From positions 9,211 to 73,210 of the forward strand of contig JACNJE010000101.1 of the NCBI GenBank assembly GCA_014382705.1: a DNA stretch of 64,000 nucleotides, read 5' to 3'. Every line of letters starts with the position of its first letter. Position 1 is the stretch's first letter. The notes beneath the pieces are model-generated. The model was not told the DNA's origin, did not search any database, and saw only the letters and a list, made by a program, of their open reading frames with translations. Below are positions 12,021 to 39,920 of the stretch, one piece after another. The stretch comes from Verrucomicrobiota bacterium. GTDB taxonomy: Bacteria > Verrucomicrobiota > Verrucomicrobiia > Limisphaerales > UBA1096. Position numbers and translations under genes: made by a program.

Positions 12021-14528
12021 TTAATTACCTGCTAACGATTCGCGCTCTTTGATCAATAGCTCGAGCAAGAATTTGTCGGATAAACCGTTTTCGTTGCCCT
12101 CCAAATTAGCAAGACAATCTTTTGCTGTTTGCCATGTTTTTTCTGATTCTGCTTGTCGATTCGTTTTAAAATGAATCATTGATAGTAATGCATTATTCAG
12201 CCCCGGTAAGAAGGGATGGGTGGCTGATGTGTATGAAAGCGACCGATCACACCATTGCTCAGCCGTTGTCATATCACCCGAACGGTACTCCACAATAGCC
12301 ATAGTGAAACAAAACCAATTATAATAATTAGTCCCTTCCTTTGTTCTGCCTAATGCCTGTTGAGCATAATTACGGGCTAGCTCGACTTGTTTTGCGTCAA
12401 TTTTCAAAAAAATAGATCCTTTTGCAAGTCGCTCAAACGTAGTGTCATGTTTTGGCTCATGGAACCTATCAAACATTTTTTGGCAATAAGTTGAATATGC
12501 ATCGACATCACCTGTTTTGGCAATTAATGACGCCCCTAACTGCCACCACATTGTCGCAAAGTTTTCATTTCCATGAGGCGATTCCTCCTCGAGTTTAACA
12601 AATGTGTACACCCAGTTTTTTGCCTGATCAAAATTGCCTAATGCCAAGTTAATCCGGCTTGCATATAATTTGGAATACTTATGTTGTGGATCAGTTTTGT
12701 TTGCGGCATTGATGGCCACCAACGCCGAATCAAAATCGCCATTCCGAGCATAGCCTCCAGATTTCTGTCTCATCGATTCGGCAAATTGTGGCAAGCCGCC
12801 TTGTTGCCCCTGCATAATTTCCAAAGCCTTGTCCACGTCTTCCTGTGATAACTCCTGTCCACTTACAAGGGCCAGAATCGCCTTTTCTTCGTTTTCCTTG
12901 GCCTGTTTCCAGGCGAACCCGGCGATGATGGATGCGGTGATGGCGACTACCGATAAAACGGTCGCTAAAATGGCTCGCCGTTTTTGGGTGATGGCCAAGC
13001 GCTCCATGGCTTCCGCTTTTGCCTGCTCGGCCTCGGCTCGTTCCTGCTCGGCCTTGGCCAAGGCTTGGGCCTGGGCCAGTTCGCGTTGGCGGGCCTCTTC
13101 GCGTTCACGCTCCTCCCGAACGGCCTCGTCGTGAGATTGGTCAAGGAAGGCCATGGCCTCGTCGAAGCCGGCAAAGTAGTGGTCGGCCCAGGTCTTGTTG
13201 GGCTTGGTTTCCTCACGCCATGAGAGGGCGATCTGCAGGTCGGGGTCGCGGTAGTAGCCGGCCTTGCCCTCTTGATACAGGCTGCTGGTGTCGGCGAGGC
13301 GGCGGTAGATCTTGGCCGACTGCGCCTCGTCGTCCACCCAGTCGCGCAGGCGGCGCCAGGCGCGCATGAGGCTTTCGTGGGAGATGTCGATGACGGTCTT
13401 GGGCGTGATTTCGGCCTCGCCGCTGGGCATGAGGAAGGTGCGGCCCTGCCGGCGGAAGGCGTCCACCACGGCGCGGATTTTGGGCTCCTCCTTCTCGATG
13501 ATCTCACACAGTTCACGGAACTGCATCGGCCGCCGGATGCCTCGGTTTTGGTCCACCTTCTCGGTGAGCGCCTTGAACAGTTTCTCGGCGATCCAGCGGT
13601 GCCCGTCGTCCGCCAGTTCGGCGTGAACCTCGTCGGCGTGGCGGCTGAGTGCCTCATCCATCCCGCCGGTGGCCTGGTAATGGTCGAGGTCAAGCGGGCC
13701 GTCCGCGCCGCTCTCATCCCAGTAATCCCATGTGCGCATGAGGGCGTGCTGGAGGATCGGCAACTGGTCGGGGTCGTCACCGATATCGTTAAGCAATCGC
13801 TGGACAAGGCGGGAGGTGATCTCGCGCTGGCCGACAGCCACCGGCCCCTCGATGGCCTGCCGGCGCTGGTTGCGATTGAGGCGCGGGATGAGGTATTCGC
13901 CGTCGTTGACCGCCTCGGCCAGGCCGCGGAACTGCGCGCAGTCGCCGAGAAAATCGGAGCGCATGGTGAGCACCACGTAAACCGGCAGGTCGATCTGCTC
14001 GCTCGCCTCGAGCAGCAGCGTGATGAAGTGCCCGGCCTCCTCCTCCGACAGCCCGCTCATGCGGCGGAAGCGGAAGATTTCCTCGAACTGGTCGACGACC
14101 AAAAGCAGGTTGGTGTTCTCCGGCAGGTCGCCCTGCTTGACGGCCTCGACCAGCCCCATGCCGCTGCGGGCAAGCGAGGCGCGGACGTGCGAGTGGATGT
14201 GATCCTCGCCGGCGTCGTGGATGTCGGCCTCGATGAGCGCCTCGGCGAGGTTGGTCAGCGGATCGCCCCCGGGGCGCATGACGGCGACCTCCCACGACGA
14301 GCCGGCGGTGGCCATGGTGCCGCCGTGCAGTTCCGGCAGCAGCCCGGCGCGGACGAGCGATGACTTGCCGCTTCCGGAAACGCCGACCACTGCGAGGAAT
14401 CGTGTTTTGCGCAAGCGCGTCAGCAGCTCGGCGGTCTGTTCCTCGCGGCCGAAGAAGAGGAATTTTTCCTCAATCTGAAACGGGCGGAGTCCGGGGAAGG
14501 GATTGAAATGTGCGTCTTGTGGGTTCAT
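12021..14528 (-). CDS. STAND-class NTPase (nSTAND/NACHT-like) with coiled coil, one TM helix and C-terminal TPR-like repeats
   Basis: NPFPGLRPFQIEEKFLFFGRE lead-in, Walker A GVSGSGKSS (about 14358..14384) and Walker B-like LLLVVDQFEEIF. Glu/Ala/Arg-rich coiled coil and a TM helix AILATVLSVVAITASIIAGFAW (12909..12974). About 295 aa of TPR-like sequence follow, encoded by markedly lower-GC DNA. Confidence 0.85.
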   Translation of the reverse strand: MNPQDAHFNPFPGLRPFQIEEKFLFFGREEQTAELLTRLRKTRFLAVVGVSGSGKSSLVRAGLLPELHGGTMATAGSSWEVAVMRPGGDPLTNLAEALIEADIHDAGEDHIHSHVRASLARSGMGLVEAVKQGDLPENTNLLLVVDQFEEIFRFRRMSGLSEEEAGHFITLLLEASEQIDLPVYVVLTMRSDFLGDCAQFRGLAEAVNDGEYLIPRLNRNQRRQAIEGPVAVGQREITSRLVQRLLNDIGDDPDQLPILQHALMRTWDYWDESGADGPLDLDHYQATGGMDEALSRHADEVHAELADDGHRWIAEKLFKALTEKVDQNRGIRRPMQFRELCEIIEKEEPKIRAVVDAFRRQGRTFLMPSGEAEITPKTVIDISHESLMRAWRRLRDWVDDEAQSAKIYRRLADTSSLYQEGKAGYYRDPDLQIALSWREETKPNKTWADHYFAGFDEAMAFLDQSHDEAVREEREREEARQRELAQAQALAKAEQERAEAEQAKAEAMERLAITQKRRAILATVLSVVAITASIIAGFAWKQAKENEEKAILALVSGQELSQEDVDKALEIMQGQQGGLPQFAESMRQKSGGYARNGDFDSALVAINAANKTDPQHKYSKLYASRINLALGNFDQAKNWVYTFVKLEEESPHGNENFATMWWQLGASLIAKTGDVDAYSTYCQKMFDRFHEPKHDTTFERLAKGSIFLKIDAKQVELARNYAQQALGRTKEGTNYYNWFCFTMAIVEYRSGDMTTAEQWCDRSLSYTSATHPFLPGLNNALLSMIHFKTNRQAESEKTWQTAKDCLANLEGNENGLSDKFLLELLIKERESLAGN

Positions 14529-14534
14529 GGCGTG

Positions 14535-16031
14535 TCAGTTGGCGAGCTTGGCTTGGGCAACAAAGGGGGCGAGGACGGCGGCATCGAAACCGCCCGGCTG
14601 GGTCAGCACCTCGGCGAAGTGAGTCTTGAAACGGCTTTTCCGGCGGTCCTCCGGCGGGGCGACAAGGACGACCTTGGCGCCTATTGGCTTGGTGCGACCG
14701 AAACCAGGCGCCTGCATCAGGTCCATCACCTTCATCTCGACCCACGAGCGGCCCCCGGCCCCGTAATAGATCAGCACCGCGTCGCAGAGGGTGAGTTTTT
14801 GGCGGTGGGCCTTGGCGATGTCGGATTCCTCCCCCTCGAACAGGGGCAGCGACACCTCGAAGCCCTGCGCGAAAAGGTAGTCCTCCAACGGCTCGATCGC
14901 CTCCTCGTCACGGGCGTCGCAGATCAGATAAACGTTGGCGGCGGCGGGCGCTTGGCCAAGCGCGGTCGGCTCCGGGGCGGTCGGCTTGGCCTTGGGCTTG
15001 AGCCGCTCGAGCAGGTAGCCCTTCAGGTTATCGAGCGACTCCTCGACGATCTCCGCGCCGGCATGCGTCGCGTCGTCCTCGTTGATGCGGCGGATGAAGT
15101 CGATCTGCCGGTCGTCCCCGGCGACCACGCCGCGCGGCAGCCAGATGATCCGCTCGAGGCCGGACTCGCGGCTCAACTCGGCGGCGATCTGGTTTTGCAA
15201 ATCCGCCACTGACCGGTCGGCCTCCTCCGGAATCATCCCGTACCGGGCGCCGACCATGTGCACGGCCAGGTCGCAGCGCTTGAGGATGTCGCGCAGAAAA
15301 TCGCACAGCTCCGGCCCGACCAGCGGCAGATTGTTCTCCGGCAGCACACGGTGGCCGCGCTCGACCAGCTCGCGCTTGATGCGGTCGCGCTCCGGCTGCA
15401 CGTCGGTCGTCGTCGCGGCGAGAAATATGGTCTTCGCATCGGCGCTGATTTCGGGCGTCTCGACCTCCGCCGCGCCGCCGCCGTCGTAGTTTTTCAGCAG
15501 GCCGCAAATCTCGTAGGCGAGGTCGTAAATGCGGGAGAAATAATTTTGCCGCGCCTGCTCGCCGAACGCCTCGTCGTACTCGACGAGCCGTCCCGTGTCG
15601 GCGTCAAAGTCAAAAAACTCAAACCCGATGATGCTCTGCAACACCGGCGGCAGGTGACCGGGAATCTCCCCCGGATCCACCGGCGTCTTGACGACCTTGA
15701 AAAGGCGCGACCGGTCGCCCACTTGGATGCCGCCCGACTCGGTTGCCTCCCGGTAAAACTCGTTGAGCTCGCGCAGGCACCACTCCGACTTCATGTAGCG
15801 CGGGCTCATGATGGAGATCATCACCTTGGCCCCCTTGAAGGCGTTCATGATTTTCTCGTCGAAAATATCGTTGCCCTGGATTTTCTGGTCGCGCCAGATG
15901 TTGGGCTTCTCTCCGAGCAACTGCCCGAGGCGAACCTCGAGAACACGGTGAAACTGGGTGATCCAGCCCTTCTGCCCCTCGGTCAGCGGCTGGTCGTCAA
16001 TGTGGGCGTAACTGATAAATACGTCATTCAT
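14535..16031 (-). CDS. TIR domain protein with two further TIR-like/DUF4062-like Rossmann modules
   Basis: VFISYAHIDD ... ISIMSPRYMKSEWCLRELNEF, with the conserved Glu codon at 15768..15770. Second module TIFLAATTTDVQPERDRIKREL...CDLAVHMVGARYG. Third module NVYLICDARDEEAIEPLEDYL...CDAVLIYYG. ATG 16031 with an upstream AGGGAG. A 6-nt spacer separates it from the STAND gene. Confidence 0.85.
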   Translation of the reverse strand: MNDVFISYAHIDDQPLTEGQKGWITQFHRVLEVRLGQLLGEKPNIWRDQKIQGNDIFDEKIMNAFKGAKVMISIMSPRYMKSEWCLRELNEFYREATESGGIQVGDRSRLFKVVKTPVDPGEIPGHLPPVLQSIIGFEFFDFDADTGRLVEYDEAFGEQARQNYFSRIYDLAYEICGLLKNYDGGGAAEVETPEISADAKTIFLAATTTDVQPERDRIKRELVERGHRVLPENNLPLVGPELCDFLRDILKRCDLAVHMVGARYGMIPEEADRSVADLQNQIAAELSRESGLERIIWLPRGVVAGDDRQIDFIRRINEDDATHAGAEIVEESLDNLKGYLLERLKPKAKPTAPEPTALGQAPAAANVYLICDARDEEAIEPLEDYLFAQGFEVSLPLFEGEESDIAKAHRQKLTLCDAVLIYYGAGGRSWVEMKVMDLMQAPGFGRTKPIGAKVVLVAPPEDRRKSRFKTHFAEVLTQPGGFDAAVLAPFVAQAKLAN

Positions 16032-16117
16032 GATACTCTGGCTCCCTCTGACAAATTGCGGTGGACGGGAGTTAAAGGAACCGGCCATCCATTGTAAACC
16101 AAAAAACCGCGCACGCA

Positions 16118-16158
16118 CTTGGCCAAGCGAACGACAGCTCGCACGCGCTTGGCCAAGC
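16118..16158. repeat. Two copies of the iterated palindrome in the divergent promoter region
   Basis: GCACGCACTTGGCCAAGCGA and GCACGCGCTTGGCCAAGCGG lie about 29 bp apart, between the TIR gene start (16031) and the cyclase gene start (16169-16211). Confidence 0.9.
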
Positions 16159-16168
16159 GGGAAATGGT

Positions 16169-18199
16169 TTGCTCCGCCCGCGCGGTTTGGGGCACGGTTT
16201 TGTGCATCCAGTGAAAGGGAGCGACGAACCATCCCCCCAATCGCCCGCTGGCGACGCCACGGCGGCGGACGCCTTGGCCAAGGTTCGCGAGCAGGGCGGT
16301 AGCCTGGCCGGGCTGCGGACGGTTTGGGAAAAGCGGCGGCGCAACGCCTGGGCGGGGGACGTCGCGGTGTACCGCCAGGCGGTCGGCGCGGCGCTGAAGC
16401 TGGGCGAGGCGTTCCTGGCCTACGACATCGCCCGCGAGGGGTTGCAGATCTTTGCCGGGGATGTCCGGCTGCTGCAGTTGCAGGCGCTGGCGCTGGCCCG
16501 CACCGGGGCGACGCAGCGTGCCAGCGCGATTCTCGTCGGGTTGCGCGAACAGGGACAGGACGACGAGGAGACGTTCGGCATCCTCGCGCGCACGCACAAG
16601 GATTTGTGGATGATCGCCGGGACGGAGGAGGAGCGCGAACATCACCTCCGCCGCAGCCTGGACGATTACCTCAAGGGCTACGAATGCTCGGGCGGCTATT
16701 ACACCGGCATCAACGCCGCCTCGATGGCACTCGTCGCCGGGGAGACGGAGACCGCCCGGCGCATCGCCGGTGAGGTCCGCCGCCTCTGCGAGGAGGGAAT
16801 GGCCAAGGGCGGGCCGGAGTCGCCGGAGTCGTACTGGCTGCTGGCCACCGCCGCCGAGGCGGCGCTCGTCTCGCGCGACCTGGAATCGGCCCGGGTCAAT
16901 TACACCCGCGCCACGACCGAGAGCAACCCGGGCGCCGCCGAGGTGAGCCGCACGCGGGGCCAGGCGCGGTTTTTGCTCAAGTCGCTGGGCGAGGAGGAGC
17001 GATTGCTGGACGACTGCTTTGTGCTGCCGCGGATCGGCCTGTTCACCGGGCACATGCTCGACCGGCCCGACCGGCCGTCCGCCCGGTTCCCCGCCGCGCT
17101 GGAGGAGACGGTTCGCGCCGAGATCGAGGCGTGCGTGGAACGGCGGGACGTGCGGATCGGTTATTGCTCGCTCGCCTGCGGCGGGGACATGCTGTTTGCG
17201 GAATCGATCCTCAAGCGCGGCGGCGAGGTGCACATCTTTTTGCCGTTCAACATCGAGGAATTCATCAAATCCAGCGTGCGGTTCATCCCGCGGGACGACC
17301 TGGTGGAGCGGTTTCACCGCGTGCTCGACAACGCCGCAAGTGTGCGGATTCTCAACGAGCATGGCGACCCCGACGATGGTGCCGCCTACGATTTCTGCAA
17401 CCGCGTCCTCGCCGGGTCGGCCATCCTCAAGAGCCAGTTTCTCGGCATGGACATCGCCCCCATCCTGCTGTGGGACGGCAATCGCGGCGACGGCGGCGGC
17501 GGCACCGAGTCGGTCCGCAACTACTGGCGAGACGCCATCCATCATGAGGCCGAGATCGTGCCGATGGACCGGATTCTCGCCGATGCCGTGGCCGGCGGAC
17601 TGGCCGCGACCGAGCCGGATCCCCGGCCGCCCAGCCCGGCCACCGGATCGGACGACCGAACCCCACAGGAAATCCGCGCGATGCTCTTTGCCGATGTTGT
17701 CGGGTTTTCCAAATGGCCGGAGCAGTGCGTCCCGCTGTTCATCCGCGAGGTCCTCGGCCGCGTGGCGGCGATCCAGGAGCGGGACGATGCCCGGCCGCTT
17801 TACGTCAACACCTGGGGCGACGCCATTTGCGCCGTGTTCGAAGACGTCGAGACGGCGGGACACTTCGCGCTGGCGCTGCAAAACACCCTCCGCGAGACCG
17901 ACTGGGAAACCACTGACCTGCATCGGGACGTCCGCTTCCGCATCGGCCTGCACGCCGGGCCGGTGTACAAATGCTTCGACCCCCTGCTTGGCCGGGACAC
18001 CTACAACGGGGCGCACGTCAACCGGGCCGCCCGAATCGAGCCGGTCGCCGTGGAGGGGCAAATCTTCGCGAGCGACGCATTCGCCGCGCTGGCCGTCATC
18101 GCGAAGACGGAAGATTTTCTTTGCGACTACGCCGGCACGCGCGAACTCCCCAAGGGCGCCGGGATGCTCGCCACCTTCCTCATCCGCCCAGCCCACTGA
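16169..18199 (+). CDS. TPR-like (DUF4071-type) / SLOG-like / class III adenylate-guanylate cyclase fusion protein
   Basis: N-terminus ILARTHKDLW and GGYYTGINAAS. Middle IGLFTGH..SLACGGDMLFAESILKRGGEVHIFLP..LLWDGNRGDGGGGTES (LOG/SLOG-like). C-terminus FADVVGFS, TWGDAICAVF and GAHVNRAARIE. The start is uncertain (TTG 16169, GTG 16202 or GTG 16211). Confidence 0.85.
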   Translation: MLRPRGLGHGFVHPVKGSDEPSPQSPAGDATAADALAKVREQGGSLAGLRTVWEKRRRNAWAGDVAVYRQAVGAALKLGEAFLAYDIAREGLQIFAGDVRLLQLQALALARTGATQRASAILVGLREQGQDDEETFGILARTHKDLWMIAGTEEEREHHLRRSLDDYLKGYECSGGYYTGINAASMALVAGETETARRIAGEVRRLCEEGMAKGGPESPESYWLLATAAEAALVSRDLESARVNYTRATTESNPGAAEVSRTRGQARFLLKSLGEEERLLDDCFVLPRIGLFTGHMLDRPDRPSARFPAALEETVRAEIEACVERRDVRIGYCSLACGGDMLFAESILKRGGEVHIFLPFNIEEFIKSSVRFIPRDDLVERFHRVLDNAASVRILNEHGDPDDGAAYDFCNRVLAGSAILKSQFLGMDIAPILLWDGNRGDGGGGTESVRNYWRDAIHHEAEIVPMDRILADAVAGGLAATEPDPRPPSPATGSDDRTPQEIRAMLFADVVGFSKWPEQCVPLFIREVLGRVAAIQERDDARPLYVNTWGDAICAVFEDVETAGHFALALQNTLRETDWETTDLHRDVRFRIGLHAGPVYKCFDPLLGRDTYNGAHVNRAARIEPVAVEGQIFASDAFAALAVIAKTEDFLCDYAGTRELPKGAGMLATFLIRPAH

Positions 18200-18291: not shown

Positions 18292-20937
18292 TCAGTCCAG
18301 AATGCGGACTCGGTAGAATTGTGCCGCGCCCAAGTCGCCGCGCGGGTCGGCCCAGTCGACACGCCCCGCGTCGTTGGTCACCTCGTCCACGCCGATCCAG
18401 CCGGCCAGGTCGCTCGACGACTCGATGAGATAAATCTCGCCCGGCCAGCCGAGGATCGACAGGCCCGGCCCTTCCGCGCCGAGCGTCAGCGTCAGGACCA
18501 CGCCGTTGCCGGCCATGCCATCCAGTTCGTCGTCGAGGATCAACGGCTGCGGTTCGGCGTTGCCGCCATCGCCGTCCGGCTTGGCCAGTTCGCTGCCGAG
18601 CTTGCCGCCGCGTTGGCGCAGCAGTTCGCCGGTCTCGGTGCGGCGGTAGCGCAGCGCGATGTCGAGCGCCGTGCGGCCGGCCTTGTCGAGTGCGTTGACG
18701 TCCGCCCCCTTGTCGAGCAGCAGCAGCGCGATCTCCTTGCGGCCTTTTTGGGCGGCGTAATGCAGCACGGTCTTTTTCCGCTTGTTCGCCGAGGCGTTGA
18801 TGTCGGCCTTGTTCTCGACGAGCACGCGTACCACCTCGATGTAGCCGTTGTAGGCCGCATATTGCAGGGCTGTGTAGCCGCCCCGGTTGCCGGCGTTCAC
18901 GTCGCCGCCGTTCTCGATGAAGCGCCGGACCGCATCGGCGTAGCCGTGGGCCGCTGCGTAGTGAATGTCGGTCTCGGCGCGAAGCTCCTTGCCGGTGCGC
19001 GCGCCCTTGGCCAAGAGCAGCTCCACCAGCGCGTCGTTCTTGCGTGATACCGCATCGTCGAGCGGCGTCTTCCTTCGCTTGTCCAGCACGTTGACCGCCG
19101 CCCCCGCGTCGAGCAGCCGCTTGGCCAAGTCGAGGTTGCCGTTGTGATAGGCGACGTAATGCAGCGCCGTCTTGCCGCTCTTGCCGGCCAAGGCAACATC
19201 GGCCTTGGCCTCGAGCAACACTTTGGCCACCTCGACATGCCCCTTCTTCGCGGCCAGGTGCAACGCCGTGTAGCCGGACTTGTTCCTGCCGTTCACGTCG
19301 ACCCCGGCAGCCAGATGCGTCTTCACCGCATCAACGAGCCCAAGCTGGGCCGCGGAAAAAATCGAGCCGGCGGCCTTGAGTTCCTTGCCGGTTTTGCCGC
19401 CCTTCTCGCGCAGCAACGTGGCGATCTCCTTTTTCTTCCCGGCGAAATCGAGCGCCGTCTTGCCCTTGCGCTGCGCGTTCACGTTGGCGCCCTTTTCGAT
19501 CAGCAATGCCGCCGCCTCCTTTTGCCCGCGCCGTACCGCGAGGTGCAACGCCGTGTAACCCTGCTTGTTGGCGGCATTCACGTCCGCGCCGCCCTCGAGG
19601 TGCTTCTTGATCGCCTCGAGATCGCCCACCCCGGCGGCAGCGAAAATATTTTCCGCAGCGGCCAATTCCCTGCCCGTCTTGCCGCCTTTGCTCCGGAGCA
19701 GTTCCGCCAACTCGGTGCGTTTCCTCGACACCGCGTAGTCGAGCGGCGTCTTATTTTTGCCGTCCTTGGCGTTGACCGGTGCTCCCGCGTCGAGCAGCCG
19801 CTTGGCCAAGTCGAGGTTGCCGTTGTAATAGGCGACGTAATGCAGCGCCGTCTTGCCGCTTTTGCTCGCGGCGGCGATGTCGGCCTTGGCCTCGAGCAAC
19901 GCCGCAGCGGCAGCCGCTTGGCCGCGCTTGGCTGCGAGATGCAGTGCCGTGTAGCCGCCCTTGTTTTTGGCGTTCACGTCCGCGCCGCCCTCAAGGTGTT
20001 TCTTGATGGCGTCGAGATCGCCCACCTCGGCGGCGGCGAAAATATTCTCGGCGGCGGCCAGTTCCTTCGCCGTCTTGCCGCCCTTGGCACGGAGCAACTC
20101 AACAACTTCGGTGCGCTTCTTCGCGATGGCGTAGTCGAGCGGCGTCTTGTTTTTCTTGTCCTTGGCATTGACTGCCGCGCCCTTCTCCAGCAGCAGCGCA
20201 GCGGTGGCTTTGCGGCCATTCTGCGCGGAGTAGTGCAGCGCCGTTTTCTGGTACTTGTCGGCGAGGGTGACGTCGGCCTTGGCCTCAAGCAGCAATGCCG
20301 CCGCGTCCAGTTGCCCGGCGCTCGCCGCGAAGTGCAACGCCGTTTGCCTGTGTTTGTTCAGGGCATTCACGTCGACACCGGCCTCGAGGTGTTTCTTGAG
20401 GGCCGCGATCGAGCCGATCTTTGCGGCAACGTAAATCGACTTCGCCGCCGCGGCGTCGCTCTTGCTCGTCACGCCGACGCTGCGGAGGTAGGCGGCCAGT
20501 TCCCGCTTGGCCTCGCCCCCGGCGAGGTCGAGTGCGGTGCGCCCCTTTTTGTCCTTGGCCGCGAGGTCGGCCTTGGCCTCGACCAGGAGCTTGGCCAAGG
20601 CGAGTTGATTGTACTGCGCGCAGTAGTGCAGCGGCGCCTTTTTGCTTTTGCTCCGCAGGTTGATGTCCGCGCCGTTGGCCAAGGCGAACTCTGCCACAGC
20701 CACCTGGCCGCTCCGGATTGCGACATGCAAAATCGAGTAGCCGTCCTTGTTTTGGTCGTCGATCTTGTTTTCCTTGGCGAGGAAGCCGTTGATCGCCTCG
20801 ACATCCCCCTCGGCAGCGGCCTGCCAAATGTTGGCGGGAGGGTTCTTCTCCGGGTTTTCCTGGGCCTGTGCGGTGGCTGTGCATCCCGCAGCAGCAATCA
20901 CTGCGGCGGCCAAGATGTTGTGAAACGTCCTCATCAT
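18292..20937 (-). CDS. Secreted ankyrin-repeat protein (881 aa) with C-terminal beta-sandwich-like module
   Basis: Signal peptide MMRTFHNILAAAVIAAAGCTATAQA. More than 20 ankyrin repeats are organised in about 95-131-aa super-repeats, each ending KGGKTGKEL. The C-terminus ends AAQFYRVRILD. ATG at 20937. Confidence 0.9.
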   Translation of the reverse strand: MMRTFHNILAAAVIAAAGCTATAQAQENPEKNPPANIWQAAAEGDVEAINGFLAKENKIDDQNKDGYSILHVAIRSGQVAVAEFALANGADINLRSKSKKAPLHYCAQYNQLALAKLLVEAKADLAAKDKKGRTALDLAGGEAKRELAAYLRSVGVTSKSDAAAAKSIYVAAKIGSIAALKKHLEAGVDVNALNKHRQTALHFAASAGQLDAAALLLEAKADVTLADKYQKTALHYSAQNGRKATAALLLEKGAAVNAKDKKNKTPLDYAIAKKRTEVVELLRAKGGKTAKELAAAENIFAAAEVGDLDAIKKHLEGGADVNAKNKGGYTALHLAAKRGQAAAAAALLEAKADIAAASKSGKTALHYVAYYNGNLDLAKRLLDAGAPVNAKDGKNKTPLDYAVSRKRTELAELLRSKGGKTGRELAAAENIFAAAGVGDLEAIKKHLEGGADVNAANKQGYTALHLAVRRGQKEAAALLIEKGANVNAQRKGKTALDFAGKKKEIATLLREKGGKTGKELKAAGSIFSAAQLGLVDAVKTHLAAGVDVNGRNKSGYTALHLAAKKGHVEVAKVLLEAKADVALAGKSGKTALHYVAYHNGNLDLAKRLLDAGAAVNVLDKRRKTPLDDAVSRKNDALVELLLAKGARTGKELRAETDIHYAAAHGYADAVRRFIENGGDVNAGNRGGYTALQYAAYNGYIEVVRVLVENKADINASANKRKKTVLHYAAQKGRKEIALLLLDKGADVNALDKAGRTALDIALRYRRTETGELLRQRGGKLGSELAKPDGDGGNAEPQPLILDDELDGMAGNGVVLTLTLGAEGPGLSILGWPGEIYLIESSSDLAGWIGVDEVTNDAGRVDWADPRGDLGAAQFYRVRILD
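19103..19219. repeat. Near-identical intragenic DNA repeat (partner at 19784..19900, offset 681 bp)
   Basis: CCCGCGTCGAGCAGCCGCTTGGCCAAGTCGAGGTTGCCGTTGT.ATAGGCGACGTAATGCAGCGCCGTCTTGCCGCT is shared with 2 mismatches over about 75 bp. It encodes SGKTALHYVAY.NGNLDLAKRLLDAGA in both copies. Confidence 0.85.
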
Positions 20938-21102
20938 TTGCGGGCAACGTAGGTGAGCGGGGCGGGTTGTAACAGGGAAAAACGGACTCATGCCACGGTC
21001 CTTAGCACACAGAGTACCATCGGGAAAAACGGCTGGTTTTGGCCATATTGGAGGCAAAAAAACAGGGTCAAGCGCGTGATCCGGGCGCAGTGGATGTGCC
21101 GC

Positions 21103-22638
21103 TCACTCCGCCGCGCTTGGCCAAGGCCAGTCGCCGTCCTCCCACTCGATCGGTTTGCGCTTGCTCTCCCCGTACACGAACCGGCCGCCATCGTCAGTTT
21201 CGTTGTAACCAATGGAGTACAGCGTGAACGTCCCGTCAGCATCCCGCCGGTACACCAATCCGGCGTCGCTGAACCAGTCGCCCGGCACGGTGGCCAGCCA
21301 CTCCGGCGACAGGGCGGTGAGGCTCGCCGGGTAACTGCCGTTGGCCAAGCGATGACTCTCCAGCGCCGTGACGATGAGCGCCTGGTCGATTGTTGCCTGG
21401 CTGGCCGACATTCTGATCCCCATCTTGTCATACGCAGGCAGCAGCATCATCGCGAAGACGTGGTACGGGGTGAAGCCTTCTCGCAGCGTCCGCACTTCCT
21501 CGTCCAACGATTTGAACCCGTTGGCCGCCAAGCGGCGGTTCTCCAGATCAATTCCCGCCAAGATATTCTCCGTGACGATGCGGTTGATGTGAAACTGATT
21601 TTGATAAAGCCAACCGTCCGGCATGCCAACCCCAACGGGCATCGACCCTCCCGTGACCCTCTCCAACTCTCCCGTCGCATTGCCGCCGCCGCCTCGCATC
21701 CGATCCATCCAATGGTTGATCATGTTTCGCTCGCCGCGAAAACACCGGGCCATCCCCTCCATCAGGTTGATCGGCTGCAACGCCTCGCGCAGCTTGGCCC
21801 ACTGCGCCGCCGACCATTTGTGATCGACCGCTCCCTCCCAATACGGCTGCAGGCCAACCTGAAGGATGGCCACGCGCACCAGTTGCGAAATGAGCAGCGG
21901 CTCATTGGCGAAGCTCTCGGCCAAGCGGATCGATGTCACCGTGTCGTGCAGCGCCCCCTCCGTGTCGCCCTTGGCCAGGCGCGCCGAGGCCCGCAGCGAA
22001 AAGAGCACCGCCGCCTGTTTCGTCACCTGCAGATGCGGGAGGAGCGCGGTGAAGGCGTCCTCGTAACGGATGTCGAACCGGCTGTGCGGCCGGCGCACAT
22101 CGCTGGCCAGCGTGGCCATGTCGGCCGCGTACGGCTCCAACGCGGCCACCACGGTATCCACCGGCGTGGCGCCCTTGGCCGGGGGATTGTCCCTCCCCAG
22201 AAGCGCCTCCTCCCACGACGCAAAATCCCTCCGCTGCCCATGCTGCCAACCGAAGGAGCTTCGCGGCGAGCGTTCCAGTTTAAAACGGTCCTTTGCCACA
22301 TCGAGCGCCGCCGGGTCACGGGGTTTGCCGTCTTCGTCGCGGTCAAACAACGGCTCGAACAACGCCGACTTGGCAAAGTTTTGGTCGTCCGGCACCTCCG
22401 GCGGGACGACGCTCGCGAGATCAAACGTCTCGCCCTTGGCCTCCCACTCCGCTTTCCACGTCTCCCACTTCGTGCGACCGCGCCAGTTTTCAACCTGCCA
22501 AGCGGTGGTGATCAGCGCGATGACCGAAACAAACGCGATGAACAGGCGCTTCAAAATCCGCGCACTGAACAGCCACCGGAAGAATCGTGCAAATGTCGGC
22601 ACGCCGGAAACGTAACCGCGTTTTGGCAAAAACGACAT
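21103..22638 (-). CDS. Hypothetical membrane-anchored protein
   Basis: 511-aa ORF with an ATG start and one N-terminal TM helix (LFIAFVSVIALITTAWQV). I recognise no domain. It is on the same strand as the ankyrin gene, 165 bp upstream. Confidence 0.65.
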   Translation of the reverse strand: MSFLPKRGYVSGVPTFARFFRWLFSARILKRLFIAFVSVIALITTAWQVENWRGRTKWETWKAEWEAKGETFDLASVVPPEVPDDQNFAKSALFEPLFDRDEDGKPRDPAALDVAKDRFKLERSPRSSFGWQHGQRRDFASWEEALLGRDNPPAKGATPVDTVVAALEPYAADMATLASDVRRPHSRFDIRYEDAFTALLPHLQVTKQAAVLFSLRASARLAKGDTEGALHDTVTSIRLAESFANEPLLISQLVRVAILQVGLQPYWEGAVDHKWSAAQWAKLREALQPINLMEGMARCFRGERNMINHWMDRMRGGGGNATGELERVTGGSMPVGVGMPDGWLYQNQFHINRIVTENILAGIDLENRRLAANGFKSLDEEVRTLREGFTPYHVFAMMLLPAYDKMGIRMSASQATIDQALIVTALESHRLANGSYPASLTALSPEWLATVPGDWFSDAGLVYRRDADGTFTLYSIGYNETDDGGRFVYGESKRKPIEWEDGDWPWPSAAE

Positions 22639-37384: not shown

Positions 37385-37615
37385 ATGAACATGACGGCGG
37401 AAAAAATTGTAACCGAAGCGCTGGGGCTTTCACCTCAAGCACGGGCATTCGTGGCCGAACGCTTGATCGAGAGCCTCGACGCCGATCCCGGAGCGGAGTT
37501 GTCACCTGCCTGGAGAGAGGAAATCCAAAAGCGCTGCCGGGAGGTGGATGAAGGCGTTGTCGAACTTCGCGACGCCGCAGATGTTTTCAAAAAAGCCTAC
37601 GCATCGCTGGGATGA
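37385..37615 (+). CDS. Putative addiction-module antitoxin
   Basis: 76-aa acidic helical protein (LSPQARAFVAERLIESLD..LSPAWREEIQKRCREVDEG). ATGA overlap with the downstream toxin gene. Confidence 0.7.
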   Translation: MNMTAEKIVTEALGLSPQARAFVAERLIESLDADPGAELSPAWREEIQKRCREVDEGVVELRDAADVFKKAYASLG

Positions 37616-37902
37616 ACCCCATTCGTTTCCACCCCGTAGCGGAGTCGGAAATGATCGATGCGGCAGCGTGGTACGAGGCCAAGCGGGTCGGCTTGGGCAG
37701 GCGATATCTCAGTTCTGTTCAGGATGCGATCAACCGAATCGAGTTGAATCCCGAGCTATTCCCGTTTGTCGAGGGTGATGTCCGCCGGTGCTTGGCCAAG
37801 ACGTTTCCTTTCGGAATACTTTTTCGGGTTGAACCAAACTTGATTGAAATAACAGCCGTCATGCACCTCCATCGTGATCCAGATGATTGGAGAACCCGAT
37901 AA
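37612..37902 (+). CDS. Type II toxin, RelE/ParE family
   Basis: 96 aa; FHPVAESEMIDAAAWYE ... FPFGILFRVEPNLIEITAVMHLHRDP. Confidence 0.8.
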   Translation: MNPIRFHPVAESEMIDAAAWYEAKRVGLGRRYLSSVQDAINRIELNPELFPFVEGDVRRCLAKTFPFGILFRVEPNLIEITAVMHLHRDPDDWRTR

Positions 37903-37910
37903 AGCCCCTC

Positions 37911-37942
37911 ACTTGTCAGTAACAAGAGCCGACCCCGTCATG
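37911..37942 (+). repeat. 32-bp imperfect direct repeat (partner at 38226..38257)
   Basis: ACTTGTCAGTAACAAGAGCCGACCCCGTCATG versus ACTTGTCAATAACAAGAACCGACCCCGTCACG (29/32 identical). Each contains the hairpin CTTGT-nnnnn-ACAAG. Confidence 0.85.
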
Positions 37943-38384
37943 TTAGTTTTACTCTCGTTCGCCGGGGAGTGTTAGCTAACGGTTTCGAGCTTAACATCGT
38001 CTTTTTGACTTGGCGTTTCTTCAATTATCGGACTGACCCTTTCCCCTCCGGGATAGGTCACGCCAACGCTTGGCCAAGCGCCGGGCTGATATCCCGCAGG
38101 GATTCCGTTTTGCAGCCCCAGGTTGAATCAAAAGATTCCACCTTGGGAACAAAGCCCCAAAAGAAACCAACCCTGAAAGCGGTTGAACAAAAACAGAGTC
38201 ACCAACCGCACCGCCTAAACCCGCGACTTGTCAATAACAAGAACCGACCCCGTCACGCGATACCGCATGGCCAAAACATACATTATTTATCACTTATGTC
38301 AATAACTTTCAACAACTATTTTGGAGGTTTCCAGAAGTGCCCTTTATTATTTGGCCTGATTTGGGCAGGGAGCTTTCGGCGCTA

Positions 38385-39920
38385 TTATGGTTCAGAATCA
38401 GTCCTCGTTGAACCGTCTGGCATTGTGCAATTTATAAAAACAGGGCGTTCCCACTTATTGAGTGAATCCATATTTTTCCAATCAACAATTTTACCATGAT
38501 CAGGTCCCGACGAAAAATAAGTAAATTTCAATTGTGCTCCTCTAAAATTACAATTTCGAATTGTCATGGTTGTGACCACTTCAACGATGATATTTGCACC
38601 CGAAAAGTCACAGTTTCTAAATAGTCCCTCAAAGTAATTACCAGAGTTTTGTCGCGTACTACCACTGATGTACTGCAAATTAGCATTTCTAAAAGATGAG
38701 TTTTCAATTATGTGCCCTCTCTGTTCAAGAACAATTCCGCTCAAGTCTTTCCCGTCAAAATTTTTATTGCTCCAATCGGAATGAATAGCAGCACTAAACA
38801 CAGCAAGATCATATCCTTGAGCACTGACATTCCCTGCCGGACCTTTTGGGCCAGCTGGACCGGCCACACCTTGTAGTCCTTGCGGACCTCTTGGACCTTC
38901 ACTGCCTTGCGCGCCTTTAGGCCCCAGTGGCCCCGGGATTCCCTGCGGCCCCTCGGGGCCTCTATTCCCTCTTGGCCCAACCAATCCCTGTGAACCCTCG
39001 GGCCCCGCAATGCCCTGTGGCCCCGCCGATCCTTGTGGTCCCTCTGGCCCTCTGATGCCTTGCGCCCCCTGCAAGTTTACCCACTCTCCCCAAGTTCCAT
39101 CCGGGTTCTGCAGTGTCAGCTTTGTTCCTGCCCACTGATGCGCCAATGTCGGCTCAACTGCCTCCGCAGCTGTCGTAACTACCCATTGCCCTCCCGCTGC
39201 TCCATCTGTGTTGGCGGTATCATTAAACAGATCCACTACCACTTTCCGTCCATCCTTCGAACCGGTAGCCGGAAGTATGATCACTTCATCGGTGATCTGC
39301 TTGGCACCGTTGTCCACCAGTTTCCTGCTCTCGTACTCATCCCCGGCCAATGTTGGCACCTTCAGCGAAACCTTGCCGCTGCCAAGCCCGGTTCCTCCCC
39401 GGTAGATGCTCAGCTTGATTTGTTTCTGCCGATACTCCTGCAGCCCCGGGTGCGGCAGCTCAAGCACCACTCCATCAGTCCCAGCCGACACTCCAATCCG
39501 GTACACGCCACCAATTTCGTTCTCGCCTATCGCTTCGCCCAAGCTGTAGGTGCCCGAAGATTCTGCCGGTGGAAGGTTCGTAATGGGGACAATGCTCTGA
39601 ACCGGCTCTTGAGGCTTGGGCTCCTCACCCGGTCCGGATGGCTCTGACTCGACCTTGAAGAACACTTTTTGGTCAGTTTCGGTACGATAGAAGAACACAA
39701 TATTTTCTCCCGTCCCATCTCCTCCGCCGAGCAGTTTCCACCCAGTTTTCTTCGCCGGATCACTCGTCCCGTAAACGTTGTAGGAGTAGCCCTTCTGGGA
39801 GTTGAACTCGACTTTGACGGATCGCTCAATGTCGAGCTGGACGTTCTGGGCTTGAAGCGTGGTGACGGAAAAAACCAACACCAATGCGGCAAAAACTCTT
39901 CCTGAATACCGGCAATTCAT
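38385..39920 (-). CDS. Secreted collagen-like (G-X-Y) protein with C-terminal pentapeptide-repeat region
   Basis: Signal peptide, then 26 uninterrupted G-X-Y triplets ([13 protein letters not shown]...GPKGPAGN). C-terminal [22 protein letters not shown] and [11 protein letters not shown]. The gene is much lower in GC (about 33-45% in the blocks I counted). Confidence 0.85.

What the first reader, a model, noticed from the sequence alone, without database searches (positions are those of the whole stretch)
12021..18199. TIR-fold protein and membrane STAND NTPase operon facing a TPR/DUF4071-SLOG-like-cyclase fusion: candidate uncharacterised nucleotide-signalling conflict system
Seen in the sequence: a 498-aa TIR protein (14535..16031) has a conserved Glu in SEWCLRELNEF. 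After a 6-nt spacer comes an 835-aa STAND NTPase (12021..14528) with Walker A GVSGSGKSS and Walker B-like LLLVVDQFEE. The NTPase continues into a coiled coil, one TM helix and about 295 aa of TPR-like repeats. Divergently transcribed, 140-180 bp away, is a 676-aa fusion (16169..18199). It combines a DUF4071-type TPR region, a LOG/SLOG-like Rossmann module (SLACGGDMLFAESILKRGGEVHIFLP ... DGGGGTES) and an apparently intact class III cyclase domain. Established knowledge: TIR domains with this Glu consume NAD+ and generate signals or act as effectors (Thoeris ThsB, TIR-STING). The ThsA SLOG domain receives the TIR-made ADPR isomer. STAND NTPases (Avs/NLR-like) are invader sensors. Class III cyclases make the signal in Pycsar. 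Inference: sensor, signal generator, signal receiver and second-messenger synthase are all present, in a wiring I cannot match to a named system. The differences are a SLOG-like module fused to a cyclase rather than to SIR2 or a TM effector, and a TIR paired with a transmembrane STAND. A two-tier cascade (TIR product to SLOG-cyclase to cNMP) is conceivable.
Basis: partly seen in the sequence, partly recalled or inferred. Interest (0 to 1): 0.88.

Follow-up and report, generated by a model that had tools for sequence, protein, structure and literature searches.

The report
TIR, membrane STAND and SLOG-cyclase module
A marine Verrucomicrobium encodes a TIR enzyme paired with a membrane-spanning NLR-like ATPase next to a cyclase that carries two predicted sensors for TIR-made nucleotides; this trio recurs across phyla and looks like an undescribed Thoeris-like relay that turns one messenger into another.

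Summary
All three genes and every quoted motif are present. Profile and structure searches confirm the four domain calls: TIR_2+DUF4062, nSTAND1, TPR-S/DUF4071 plus a YpsA-like SLOG fold, and a class III cyclase with its catalytic residues intact. No PADLOC or NCBIfam model names the system.

The TIR and nSTAND1 genes form an obligate pair. In about 80 related loci the STAND gene always follows the TIR gene. All 48 complete partners have one TM helix followed by a hypervariable C-terminus. In this window that C-terminus is a recent low-GC import (GC3 0.9 falls to 0.35 at the TM helix).

The cyclase is a facultative partner. Of 41 cyclase loci with full flanks, 25 have a TIR gene within 5 kb, in several phyla, clades and orientations. 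One protein fuses nSTAND1 to TPR-S-SLOG-cyclase directly behind a SIR2-TIR gene. Close relatives nevertheless carry the cyclase alone or the pair alone.

Best reading (about 0.45): a split, membrane-anchored NLR-like receptor activates the TIR. The TIR's NAD-derived product is sensed by TPR-S/SLOG and switches on the cyclase. Signal direction, the defence role and the cNMP target are all untested. I rate it a new variant of a known kind.

The parts
14535..16031 (-). TIR-DUF4062 protein gene (498 aa). It has three alpha/beta domains: TIR at aa 1-183 (nt 15483-16031), DUF4062 at aa 200-345 (nt 14997-15434), and an unassigned Rossmann-like domain at aa 365-498 (nt 14538-14939). The candidate catalytic Glu88 lies in W84-C85-x-x-E88.
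   Evidence: Pfam TIR_2 1e-14 and DUF4062 4e-8. W84 and E88 are invariant in 20 homologues down to 39% identity; C85 is in all but the two most distant. AlphaFold gives three domains at pLDDT 75. Foldseek hits plant TIRs, SARM1, AbTir and TLR1, plus the CMP N-glycosidase BcmB.
12021..14528 (-). Single-pass transmembrane nSTAND1 NTPase gene (835 aa), 6 nt downstream of the TIR gene. Layout: NTPase module aa 10-421 (nt 13266-14501), coiled coil about aa 463-515, TM helix aa 520-538 (nt 12915-12971), and a TPR-like C-terminal module aa 541-835 (nt 12024-12905).
   Evidence: Pfam nSTAND1 1e-102. Walker A GVSGSGKSS and Walker B LLLVVDQFEE are present. One TM helix sits at the same position in 48 of 49 complete-ORF homologues (the exception is a 395-aa ORF too short to reach it). 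TPR hits on the C-terminal 299 aa.
12021..12960 (-). Low-GC 3' part of the STAND gene, encoding the predicted extracytoplasmic sensor module. It looks like a recently imported segment.
   Evidence: GC is 0.43 here against 0.66 for the 5' part. GC3 falls from about 0.9 (aa 51-450) to about 0.35 (aa 550-835), with the break at the TM helix. The module is replaced by WD40+discoidin+LamG in the 85%-identical orthologue L008. Only 5 database relatives were found.
16211..18199 (+). TPR-S - SLOG - class III cyclase protein gene (662 aa from GTG 16211; the ORF opens at TTG 16169, and aa numbers below use the 676-aa ORF). TPR-S/MAP3K_TRAF_bd about aa 84-260 (nt 16418-16948). YpsA-like SLOG aa 283-470 (nt 17015-17578). 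Cyclase aa 504-672 (nt 17678-18184).
   Evidence: Pfam hits. SLOG fold from model m13bbb9d3a73d against PDB 2nx2, E 9e-7, TM 0.65/0.70. Cyclase residues D509, D551, R591, N618, R622 and K662 align to the catalytic residues of solved cyclases; the base-specifying positions are N547 and T611.
16032..16210 (.). Divergent intergenic region between the TIR and cyclase genes. It holds two copies of the genome-wide palindrome CTTGGCCAAG, at 16118 and 16148.
   Evidence: Sequence read and palindrome count. No sigma-70-like promoter matched here.

Best explanation
This is a modular, Thoeris-like TIR signalling system built on a split, membrane-anchored NLR-like receptor.

Shown:
- The TIR-DUF4062 and nSTAND1 genes form a constant two-gene operon.
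- The nSTAND1 protein has a cytoplasmic NTPase, one TM helix and a hypervariable C-terminus. That C-terminus should face the periplasm.
- The neighbouring protein combines TPR-S, a YpsA-like SLOG fold and a catalytically intact class III cyclase.
- This cyclase family is genomically linked to TIR genes across phyla, and in one case it is fused to nSTAND1.

Inferred:
- Ligand binding by the outer sensor makes the STAND NTPase oligomerise.
- The oligomer brings partner TIR domains together, and they cleave NAD+ (Glu88) into an ADP-ribose-derived messenger.
- That messenger is bound by TPR-S and/or SLOG.
- Binding drives dimerisation and activation of the cyclase, which converts the first messenger into a cyclic mononucleotide.

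The nucleotide made cannot be predicted, because the base-specifying residues are N547 and T611 rather than K/D or E/C. The cNMP target is unknown.
For: Domain identities. The candidate catalytic Glu is invariant in the TIR family and in the second TIR family, 'TIR2'.

Obligate pair: the STAND gene lies immediately downstream of the TIR gene in every one of about 80 loci that has downstream sequence.

TM helix and variable C-terminus.

Linkage seen from the cyclase side:
- 18 of 80 loci carry the pair.
- 25 of 41 loci with 5-kb flanks on both sides carry a TIR gene within 5 kb.
- This holds in at least 5 cyclase clades and in divergent, co-directional and convergent arrangements, often 0-170 bp apart.

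Common denominator: the neighbours differ in architecture (TIR-DUF4062+nSTAND1, TIR-TM-ectodomain, TIR-nSTAND1-WD40). What they share is the TIR domain. TIR2 has essentially no other cytoplasmic domain, which argues that the TIR product is what reaches the cyclase protein.

Rosetta stone: P0353 is nSTAND1-TPR-S-SLOG-cyclase. It is collinear with the window's two proteins and is encoded directly behind a SIR2_2+TIR_2 gene, the two ORFs overlapping by 4 nt.

Precedent: the ThsA SLOG domain binds 3'cADPR. The Thoeris VIII effector ThsI carries a TPR domain that was earlier predicted to act in TIR signalling, and ThsI responds to cADPR (bioRxiv 10.64898/2025.12.03.692087).
Against: No biochemical step has been tested.

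The cyclase gene and the TIR-STAND pair are gained and lost independently at this very locus. Relatives L001/2/4/5/6/13 have the cyclase only. L097 and L087 have the pair only.

Most TIR-nSTAND1 pairs in marine metagenome contigs that have 3-10 kb of upstream flank lack an adjacent cyclase gene.

No cNMP-binding effector is conserved nearby, and the window is housekeeping context.

Some family members, including the fusion P0353, have Ser in place of the transition-state Asn of the cyclase.

I could not confirm that the ThsI TPR domain is Pfam TPR-S, because the defining paper was not retrievable.
Confidence: 0.45

Rival explanations
1. The modules are independent. TIR-DUF4062 + nSTAND1 is a self-contained Avs/NLR-like abortive-infection pair in which the TIR simply depletes NAD+. 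The TPR-S-SLOG-cyclase is an unrelated physiological signalling cyclase that happens to sit in the same variable chromosomal spot.
For: The pair occurs without the cyclase in most loci sampled from the TIR side. It also occurs without it in close relatives (L087, L097). The cyclase is kept in syntenic relatives that lack the pair. The cyclase family is very large, with at least 527 species and 5036 SLOG clusters.
Against: A TIR gene lies within 5 kb in 25 of 41 fully flanked cyclase loci. This holds across phyla, clades and orientations, and the genes are often operonic. nSTAND1 is fused to the whole TPR-S-SLOG-cyclase behind a TIR gene. Both non-catalytic domains of the cyclase protein belong to families tied to TIR signalling.
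Confidence: 0.2
2. The flow runs the other way, as in Pycsar or Pucsar. The cyclase protein is the sensor and signal generator, and its cNMP activates the TIR protein as an NAD+-depleting effector. DUF4062 or the third domain would act as the cNMP sensor.
For: There is a weak PycC hit (5.6e-5). A 2026 preprint abstract describes cyclase-made cGMP activating TIR effectors (listed; the text was not retrievable). In L166 the partner is SIR2+TIR, a typical NADase effector architecture. The TIR protein has two extra domains of unknown role.
Against: TIR2 neighbours have no cytoplasmic domain other than TIR that could sense cNMP. No CAP-type cNMP-binding domain was found in any partner. This model leaves SLOG and TPR-S, which are known or predicted receivers of TIR products, without a ligand. 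It also leaves the STAND sensor redundant.
Confidence: 0.15
3. The link is a direct protein complex with no small-molecule relay. The TPR-S region of the cyclase protein docks on the nSTAND1 oligomer. TIR and cyclase are then two parallel effectors of one receptor.
For: In the fusion P0353, TPR-S follows the NTPase directly, where STAND proteins usually carry their repeat arrays. P0331 has a second STAND-TPR-S-SLOG arrangement that includes a cyclase.
Against: The window's STAND already has its own TM helix and C-terminal module. Many cyclase loci have a TIR2 neighbour with no STAND at all. The strictly conserved loop and glycine-rich motifs of the SLOG domain suggest a small ligand.
Confidence: 0.15

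Closest known systems
Thoeris systems (ThsB TIR plus an effector with a ligand sensor; type I ThsA SIR2-SLOG, type VIII ThsI hydrolase-TPR)
   Same: Both have a TIR with a catalytic-Glu motif. Both have a neighbouring protein with a SLOG fold and a TPR-type sensor, which are the two domain kinds reported or proposed to read TIR-made ADPR derivatives.
   Different: The output domain is a class III nucleotide cyclase, not a killing or depleting effector. The TIR is operonically tied to a transmembrane STAND NTPase rather than sensing on its own. ThsB models score far below threshold. No cyclase effector was found among the text and supplements of the 29-type survey.
Antiviral STAND NTPases (Avs, bNACHT) and plant TIR-NLRs
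   Same: Both follow the effector - NTPase - variable sensor logic. The C-terminal sensor is hypervariable and exchangeable. The TIR acts as the N-terminal partner, and it is actually fused in L041. As in plant TNL-to-EDS1 signalling, a TIR product would be read by a separate receptor.
   Different: The NTPase belongs to the nSTAND1 clade. The effector is on a separate polypeptide. There is a conserved TM helix between NTPase and sensor, so the sensor should be extracytoplasmic.
nSTAND1-centred conflict systems of Kaur, Burroughs, Iyer and Aravind (eLife 2021, PMC8195603)
   Same: The NTPase clade is the same. TIR/DrHyd-type effectors and lectin-fold C-terminal domains (LamG, discoidin) occur in relatives.
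   Different: The systems described there are STAND-FGS/NPCBM types with EADs and DGRs. I found no mention of a TM helix, of the TIR-DUF4062 partner or of a TPR-S-SLOG-cyclase in the text I could read.
Pycsar / Pucsar (class III-like cyclase plus a cNMP-activated effector)
   Same: Both have a class III cyclase domain next to a TIR protein. The PycC hit is weak.
   Different: There is no cNMP-binding effector. The cyclase carries TPR-S and SLOG sensor domains. The score is 20 bits.
Animal ASK1/MAP3K5 regulatory region (Pfam MAP3K_TRAF_bd, formerly DUF4071)
   Same: The TPR scaffold is homologous (Pfam 8e-9).
   Different: There is no kinase, and the context is bacterial, with SLOG and cyclase domains.

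Membership tests
Thoeris | TIR-domain protein with the catalytic glutamate | tested here: met
   TIR_2 1e-14. W84 and E88 are invariant. The fold matches NADase TIRs.
Thoeris | TIR protein matches curated ThsB/Thoeris models at threshold | tested here: not met
   PADLOC ThsB1 E 0.0012, 16 bits. NCBIfam ThcB4 12 bits against a cut-off of 220.
Thoeris | Adjacent effector carrying a sensor domain for the TIR product (SLOG, Macro, TPR and others) | tested here: met
   YpsA-like SLOG fold and TPR-S in the divergently transcribed neighbour.
Thoeris | Effector output that kills or arrests the cell (SIR2, TM pore, nuclease, hydrolase) | tested here: not met
   The output domain is Guanylate_cyc with intact catalytic residues.
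Thoeris | Phage-triggered production of an ADPR-derived signal, and phage defence | not testable with these tools
   Needs expression, phage challenge and LC-MS.
STAND NTPase, nSTAND1 clade | Match to the nSTAND1 profile with Walker A and Walker B | tested here: met
   PF20703 1.2e-102 over aa 10-421. GVSGSGKSS and LLLVVDQFEE are present.
Avs / antiviral STAND | Single polypeptide: N-terminal effector, NTPase, C-terminal sensor; cytosolic | tested here: not met
   The effector is on a separate gene 6 nt upstream. A conserved TM helix follows the NTPase. No Avs model hit in PADLOC.
Pycsar | PycC-type cyclase plus an adjacent effector with a cNMP-binding domain | tested here: not met
   PycC 20 bits only. 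No cNMP-binding domain in the neighbours.
Class III nucleotidyl cyclase | Two metal-binding Asp, the transition-state Asn and Arg, and the phosphate-binding Arg and Lys | tested here: met
   D509, D551, R591, N618, R622 and K662 align with solved cyclases. The base-specifying pair is non-canonical (N547, T611).
SLOG superfamily (YpsA-like) | Rossmannoid SLOG fold with glycine-rich loops | tested here: met
   Foldseek: YpsA 2nx2 E 9e-7, TM 0.65/0.70, then ShosA, DprA, MoCo carrier and LOG. No sequence-level match.
SLOG superfamily (YpsA-like) | Binding of a cADPR-type ligand (as in ThsA), as opposed to catalysis (as in LOG) | not testable with these tools
   Needs binding assays or a co-structure.
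TPR-S (PF20308) | Match above the Pfam gathering score | tested here: met
   74.4 bits against a cut-off of 27.6. TPR-S precedes this SLOG subfamily in all ten family members scanned.

The most novel reading that the evidence does not exclude
This would be a bacterial 'outside-in' innate-immune-like pathway. Single-pass membrane receptors with hypervariable, exchangeable ectodomains switch on a cytoplasmic TIR NADase. The receptors are either nSTAND1 NTPases with a separate TIR partner or direct TIR-TM-ectodomain proteins, which have the same topology as Toll-like receptors. A dedicated TPR-S/SLOG receiver then converts the NAD-derived messenger into a cyclic mononucleotide. The result is a two-tier second-messenger relay, analogous to plant TNL-to-EDS1 signalling, and it may serve surface surveillance rather than cytoplasmic phage sensing.
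Probability: 0.3. Interest if true: 0.9.

Novelty: new variant of a known kind. Interest (0 to 1): 0.72.

Why it matters
If the relay is real, it would be the first case I found in the searchable literature of a TIR-derived messenger being converted into a cNMP messenger. In the characterised Thoeris types covered by the literature I could read, the effector kills the cell or depletes a metabolite directly. This would link the two large families of bacterial nucleotide signalling.

It would also show STAND/NLR-like NTPases and TIR proteins acting as transmembrane receptors with exchangeable outer sensors, a topology otherwise associated with animal Toll-like receptors. The GC3 break inside the STAND gene is a clear example of sensor-module swapping.

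The system is common in under-studied phyla (Verrucomicrobiota, Acidobacteriota) and absent from defence-system catalogues. It also gives a concrete test for what TPR-S and this SLOG subfamily bind.

Tried and rejected
- PADLOC and NCBIfam scans gave only sub-threshold ThsB, PycC and FxsC hits, so no named system applies.
- A sequence profile of the SLOG module against PDB found nothing, even at E 10. Only the fold comparison worked.
- Profile-profile comparison of the three TIR-protein domains was inconclusive. DUF4062 against the third domain gave E 0.04 with a topologically sensible alignment, and the other pairs gave nothing. I therefore do not claim a duplication.
- The papers that define TPR-S and SLOG (Burroughs 2015; Burroughs & Aravind 2020) and the Pucsar preprint could not be retrieved. 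Statements about them rest on memory or on citing papers.
- Supplements of the 2026 STAND survey did not contain 'nSTAND' or DUF4062.
- A homologue search with the C-terminal sensor module found only 5 relatives and gave no clue to its ligand.
- The promoter and terminator scan gave nothing useful in the divergent region.
- I considered that the locus lies in a defence island and rejected it, because the flanks are housekeeping genes.
- I considered the hydrophobic segment to be an accident and rejected it, because it is present at the same place in 48 of 49 complete-ORF homologues.
Full report
**Observation**

- The STAND gene is 12021..14528(-), 835 aa.
- The TIR ORF opens further upstream (to 16232). 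More than 100 homologues start at MNDVFISYAH, which fixes the 498-aa product 14535..16031.
- The TIR stop and the STAND start are 6 nt apart.
- The cyclase ORF opens at TTG 16169. An identical database protein is 662 aa, and the alignment points to GTG 16211 as the start.
- All quoted motifs are in the translations.

The window comes from a marine Verrucomicrobiota genome with about 64% GC. Homologues of 80-96% identity occur in such MAGs. The surrounding genes are housekeeping: lysS, aspartokinase, folC, obg, ychF, ribonucleotide reductase and RND pumps. This is not a defence island.

**Domain assignments**

Pfam results:
- TIR protein: TIR_2 (1e-14) and DUF4062 (4e-8).
- STAND protein: nSTAND1 (1e-102, aa 10-421), plus TPR hits in the last 299 aa.
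- Cyclase protein: TPR-S (1e-20), overlapping MAP3K_TRAF_bd (the former DUF4071, 8e-9), and Guanylate_cyc (2e-11).

PADLOC and NCBIfam give only sub-threshold ThsB, PycC and FxsC hits. No catalogued system matches.

The unassigned middle of the cyclase protein (aa 280-472) has no PDB relative at the sequence level. It folds with pLDDT 85 into a Rossmannoid domain. Its best structural matches are YpsA (E 9e-7, TM 0.65/0.70), followed by ShosA, DprA, the MoCo carrier protein and LOG.

The cyclase domain aligns with solved cyclases. Both metal-binding Asp residues (D509, D551) are present, as are R591, N618, R622 and K662. The two base-specifying positions are N547 (invariant in the family) and T611 (T, S or C in the family). 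Adenylyl cyclases have K/D there and guanylyl cyclases have E/C. The enzyme looks active, but its substrate cannot be read from the sequence.

The TIR protein has an invariant W84-x-x-x-E88 motif with a near-invariant C85. Its model has three alpha/beta domains. The N-terminal one matches NADase TIRs: RUN1, RPP1, SARM1 and AbTir.

**The TIR-nSTAND1 pair is an obligate module with a membrane-receptor design**

I examined 80 metagenome loci retrieved with the TIR protein and 5 loci from exact look-ups. In every locus with sequence downstream of the TIR gene, an nSTAND1 gene follows immediately.

Of 49 complete ORFs, 48 have exactly one strongly hydrophobic helix at aa 490-540, right after the NTPase and coiled coil; the exception is a 395-aa ORF too short to reach that point. 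A C-terminus of entirely different length and content follows, giving totals of 825-2161 aa. Examples:
- TPR-like in the window.
- WD40 + discoidin + LamG in the 85%-identical orthologue L008.
- LamG in L081.
- 3-keto-disaccharide-hydrolase-like + ankyrin in L083.
- Long TPR arrays in Acidobacteriota.

The NTPase must be cytoplasmic, so the variable module should be extracytoplasmic. This is inference. It is consistent with the lectin-type domains and with the neighbouring ankyrin protein, which has a signal peptide.

The window's gene is a compositional chimera. GC3 is about 0.9 for aa 51-450 and about 0.35 for aa 550-835, and the break lies at the TM helix. The sensor module was therefore imported recently from a low-GC relative. 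L089 (GC 0.47) has an 82%-identical module. In 5.8 billion proteins only five relatives of the module were found.

**Linkage to the cyclase gene**

The TPR-S-SLOG-cyclase family is large. It occurs in at least 527 species of Verrucomicrobiota, Acidobacteriota, Cyanobacteria and other phyla, and many members carry an extra N-terminal RyR domain.

Among 80 genome loci, 18 carry the TIR-DUF4062/nSTAND1 pair beside the cyclase gene. These fall in at least three cyclase clades and in divergent, co-directional and convergent arrangements. L085 adds another Verrucomicrobial case.

Another 19 loci carry a second TIR family, which I call TIR2 here. TIR2 is an N-terminal TIR with an invariant S-x-W-V-x-x-E motif, one TM helix at aa 200-230 and a variable C-terminus. 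That C-terminus is WD40 in Verrucomicrobiota and an unknown domain of about 400 aa in Acidobacteriota. The TIR2 gene often lies 0-170 bp from the cyclase gene. L041 has a TIR-nSTAND1-TM-WD40 fusion abutting the cyclase gene.

Of the 41 cyclase loci with at least 5 kb on both sides, 25 have a TIR gene within 5 kb: 13 the pair, 16 TIR2 and 4 both.

A profile search with the SLOG domain found 5036 clusters at 50% identity. All ten family members I scanned had TPR-S in front of the SLOG domain. Three architectures stand out:
- P0353 is nSTAND1-TPR-S-SLOG-cyclase. It is 36% identical to the window's cyclase protein over aa 61-670. Its N-terminus aligns with the window's STAND through Walker A and Walker B. 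Its gene lies directly behind a SIR2_2+TIR_2 gene, overlapping it by 4 nt. The same three components are thus packed into two genes.
- P0331 is cyclase-STAND-TPR-S-SLOG. It sits next to TCAD9-TPR-S and RyR genes.
- P0343 has GAF in front of the TPR-S-SLOG-cyclase module.

**Limits of the linkage**

At this same syntenic position, close relatives show every combination:
- Cyclase plus pair: the window, L008, L010, L086, L088, L098 and L099.
- Cyclase only, with the glycosyltransferase gene directly adjacent: L001, L002, L004, L005, L006 and L013.
- Pair only: L097, where the ankyrin gene abuts the TIR gene, and L087, which has other neighbours.

From the TIR side, only about 3 of 26 loci with at least 3 kb of upstream flank have the cyclase gene. 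The cyclase is therefore a frequent but facultative neighbour. If the functional link exists, it may also work in trans.

**Mechanism**

The literature I could read says the following:
- The ThsA SLOG domain binds 3'cADPR.
- The type VIII Thoeris effector ThsI responds to canonical cADPR. [quoted passage not shown]
- From memory, that prediction is the origin of Pfam TPR-S and of its link to the ASK1 scaffold. I could not retrieve the paper.

The cyclase protein therefore carries two domains of the kinds that read TIR products. Its varied genomic partners share only the TIR domain, and TIR2 proteins have no other cytoplasmic domain. I therefore favour this order of events: outer sensor, STAND oligomerisation, TIR activation, NAD-derived messenger, TPR-S/SLOG binding, cyclase dimer activation, cNMP.

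Only the domain identities and the genomic and fusion linkage are shown. Every biochemical step is inferred.

Rivals:
- The modules are independent (0.2).
- Reverse, Pycsar-like flow with the TIR as NADase effector (0.15).
- A direct STAND-TPR-S protein complex without a small-molecule relay (0.15).

Nothing identifies the cNMP target. In one Acidobacterial lineage a cluster of GAF protein, S8 peptidase, sigma-like and anti-sigma genes lies convergent to the cyclase gene. This may be plain synteny.

**Comparison with known systems, and novelty**

The logic is Thoeris-like (a TIR plus a SLOG/TPR receiver) and NLR-like (effector, STAND, variable sensor). Defining features of each named family fail:
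- The ThsB models are not met.
- The output is a cyclase, not a toxic effector.
- The effector is split from the STAND.
- A TM helix separates the NTPase from the sensor.
- There is no cNMP-binding effector, as Pycsar would require.

nSTAND1 systems with TIR/DrHyd effectors and lectin-type sensors were outlined by Kaur et al. 2021 (PMC8195603). In the text and supplements available to me, I found no description of the TM design, of the TIR-DUF4062 partner or of the TPR-S-SLOG-cyclase partner. Two defining Aravind-lab papers could not be read, so a prior computational mention cannot be excluded.

I rate this a new variant of a known kind, with interest 0.72.

Noticed in passing
window, whole length (e.g. 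11726, 11771, 16118, 16148, 18204): The 10-bp palindrome CTTGGCCAAG occurs 61 times in 64 kb, against 0.11 expected from shuffles. That is about one copy per kb, inside genes and between them. It resembles the cyanobacterial HIP1 highly iterated palindrome. No copy lies in the low-GC 3' part of the STAND gene.
   Followed up: partly
window 12021-12960 versus 13000-14528: There is a sharp compositional break inside one intact gene. GC3 is about 0.9 upstream and about 0.35 downstream of the TM helix of the STAND NTPase, which indicates a recent swap of the sensor module.
   Followed up: yes
L017:5110-9312, L047:12065-13954, L067:13059-14975 and about 16 other loci: A second TIR family lies next to the cyclase family. 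It consists of an N-terminal TIR (KYWAFISYSH...S.WV..E), one TM helix at aa 200-230 and a variable C-terminus, which is WD40 or an unknown domain of about 400 aa. This is the topology of a Toll-like receptor.
   Followed up: partly
L166:6604-11264: A SIR2_2+TIR_2 gene overlaps by 4 nt the start of an nSTAND1-TPR-S-SLOG-cyclase fusion gene. A transposase and a DUF932 gene lie nearby, which suggests a mobile context.
   Followed up: partly
L167:4209-11642: A RyR-domain gene, a TCAD9+TPR-S gene and a cyclase-STAND(NB-ARC-like)-TPR-S-SLOG gene lie in a row. This is another conflict-system-like setting for the TPR-S-SLOG module.
   Followed up: no
L038:12002-15384, L045:12037-15421 and 5 similar Pyrinomonadaceae loci: A conserved cluster lies convergent to the cyclase gene: a zf-HC2 anti-sigma-like gene, a sigma-70-like gene of about 350-360 aa, an S8 peptidase and a stand-alone GAF protein. 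It could be a cNMP-responsive output, or it could be plain synteny.
   Followed up: partly
L075:16529-17677, L079:16543-17712, L052:12013-13170: A conserved secreted protein of 382-389 aa, with a signal peptide and no Pfam hit, follows the STAND gene in the Acidobacterial loci that carry the short (~920-aa) nSTAND1, whether the cyclase gene is co-directional (L075, L079) or convergent (L052).
   Followed up: no
window 37612-39920: A low-GC gene (38385..39920, GC3 0.51, signal peptide) sits beside a small ParE/RelE-like ORF (37612..37902) in an otherwise high-GC housekeeping region. It is probably a separate recent insertion.
   Followed up: no
window 18292-22638: A 921-aa ankyrin-repeat protein with a signal peptide and lipobox, and a 511-aa protein with no Pfam hit, are syntenic with the cyclase gene in relatives. 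Ankyrin repeats outside the cytoplasm appear to be normal in this organism.
   Followed up: no
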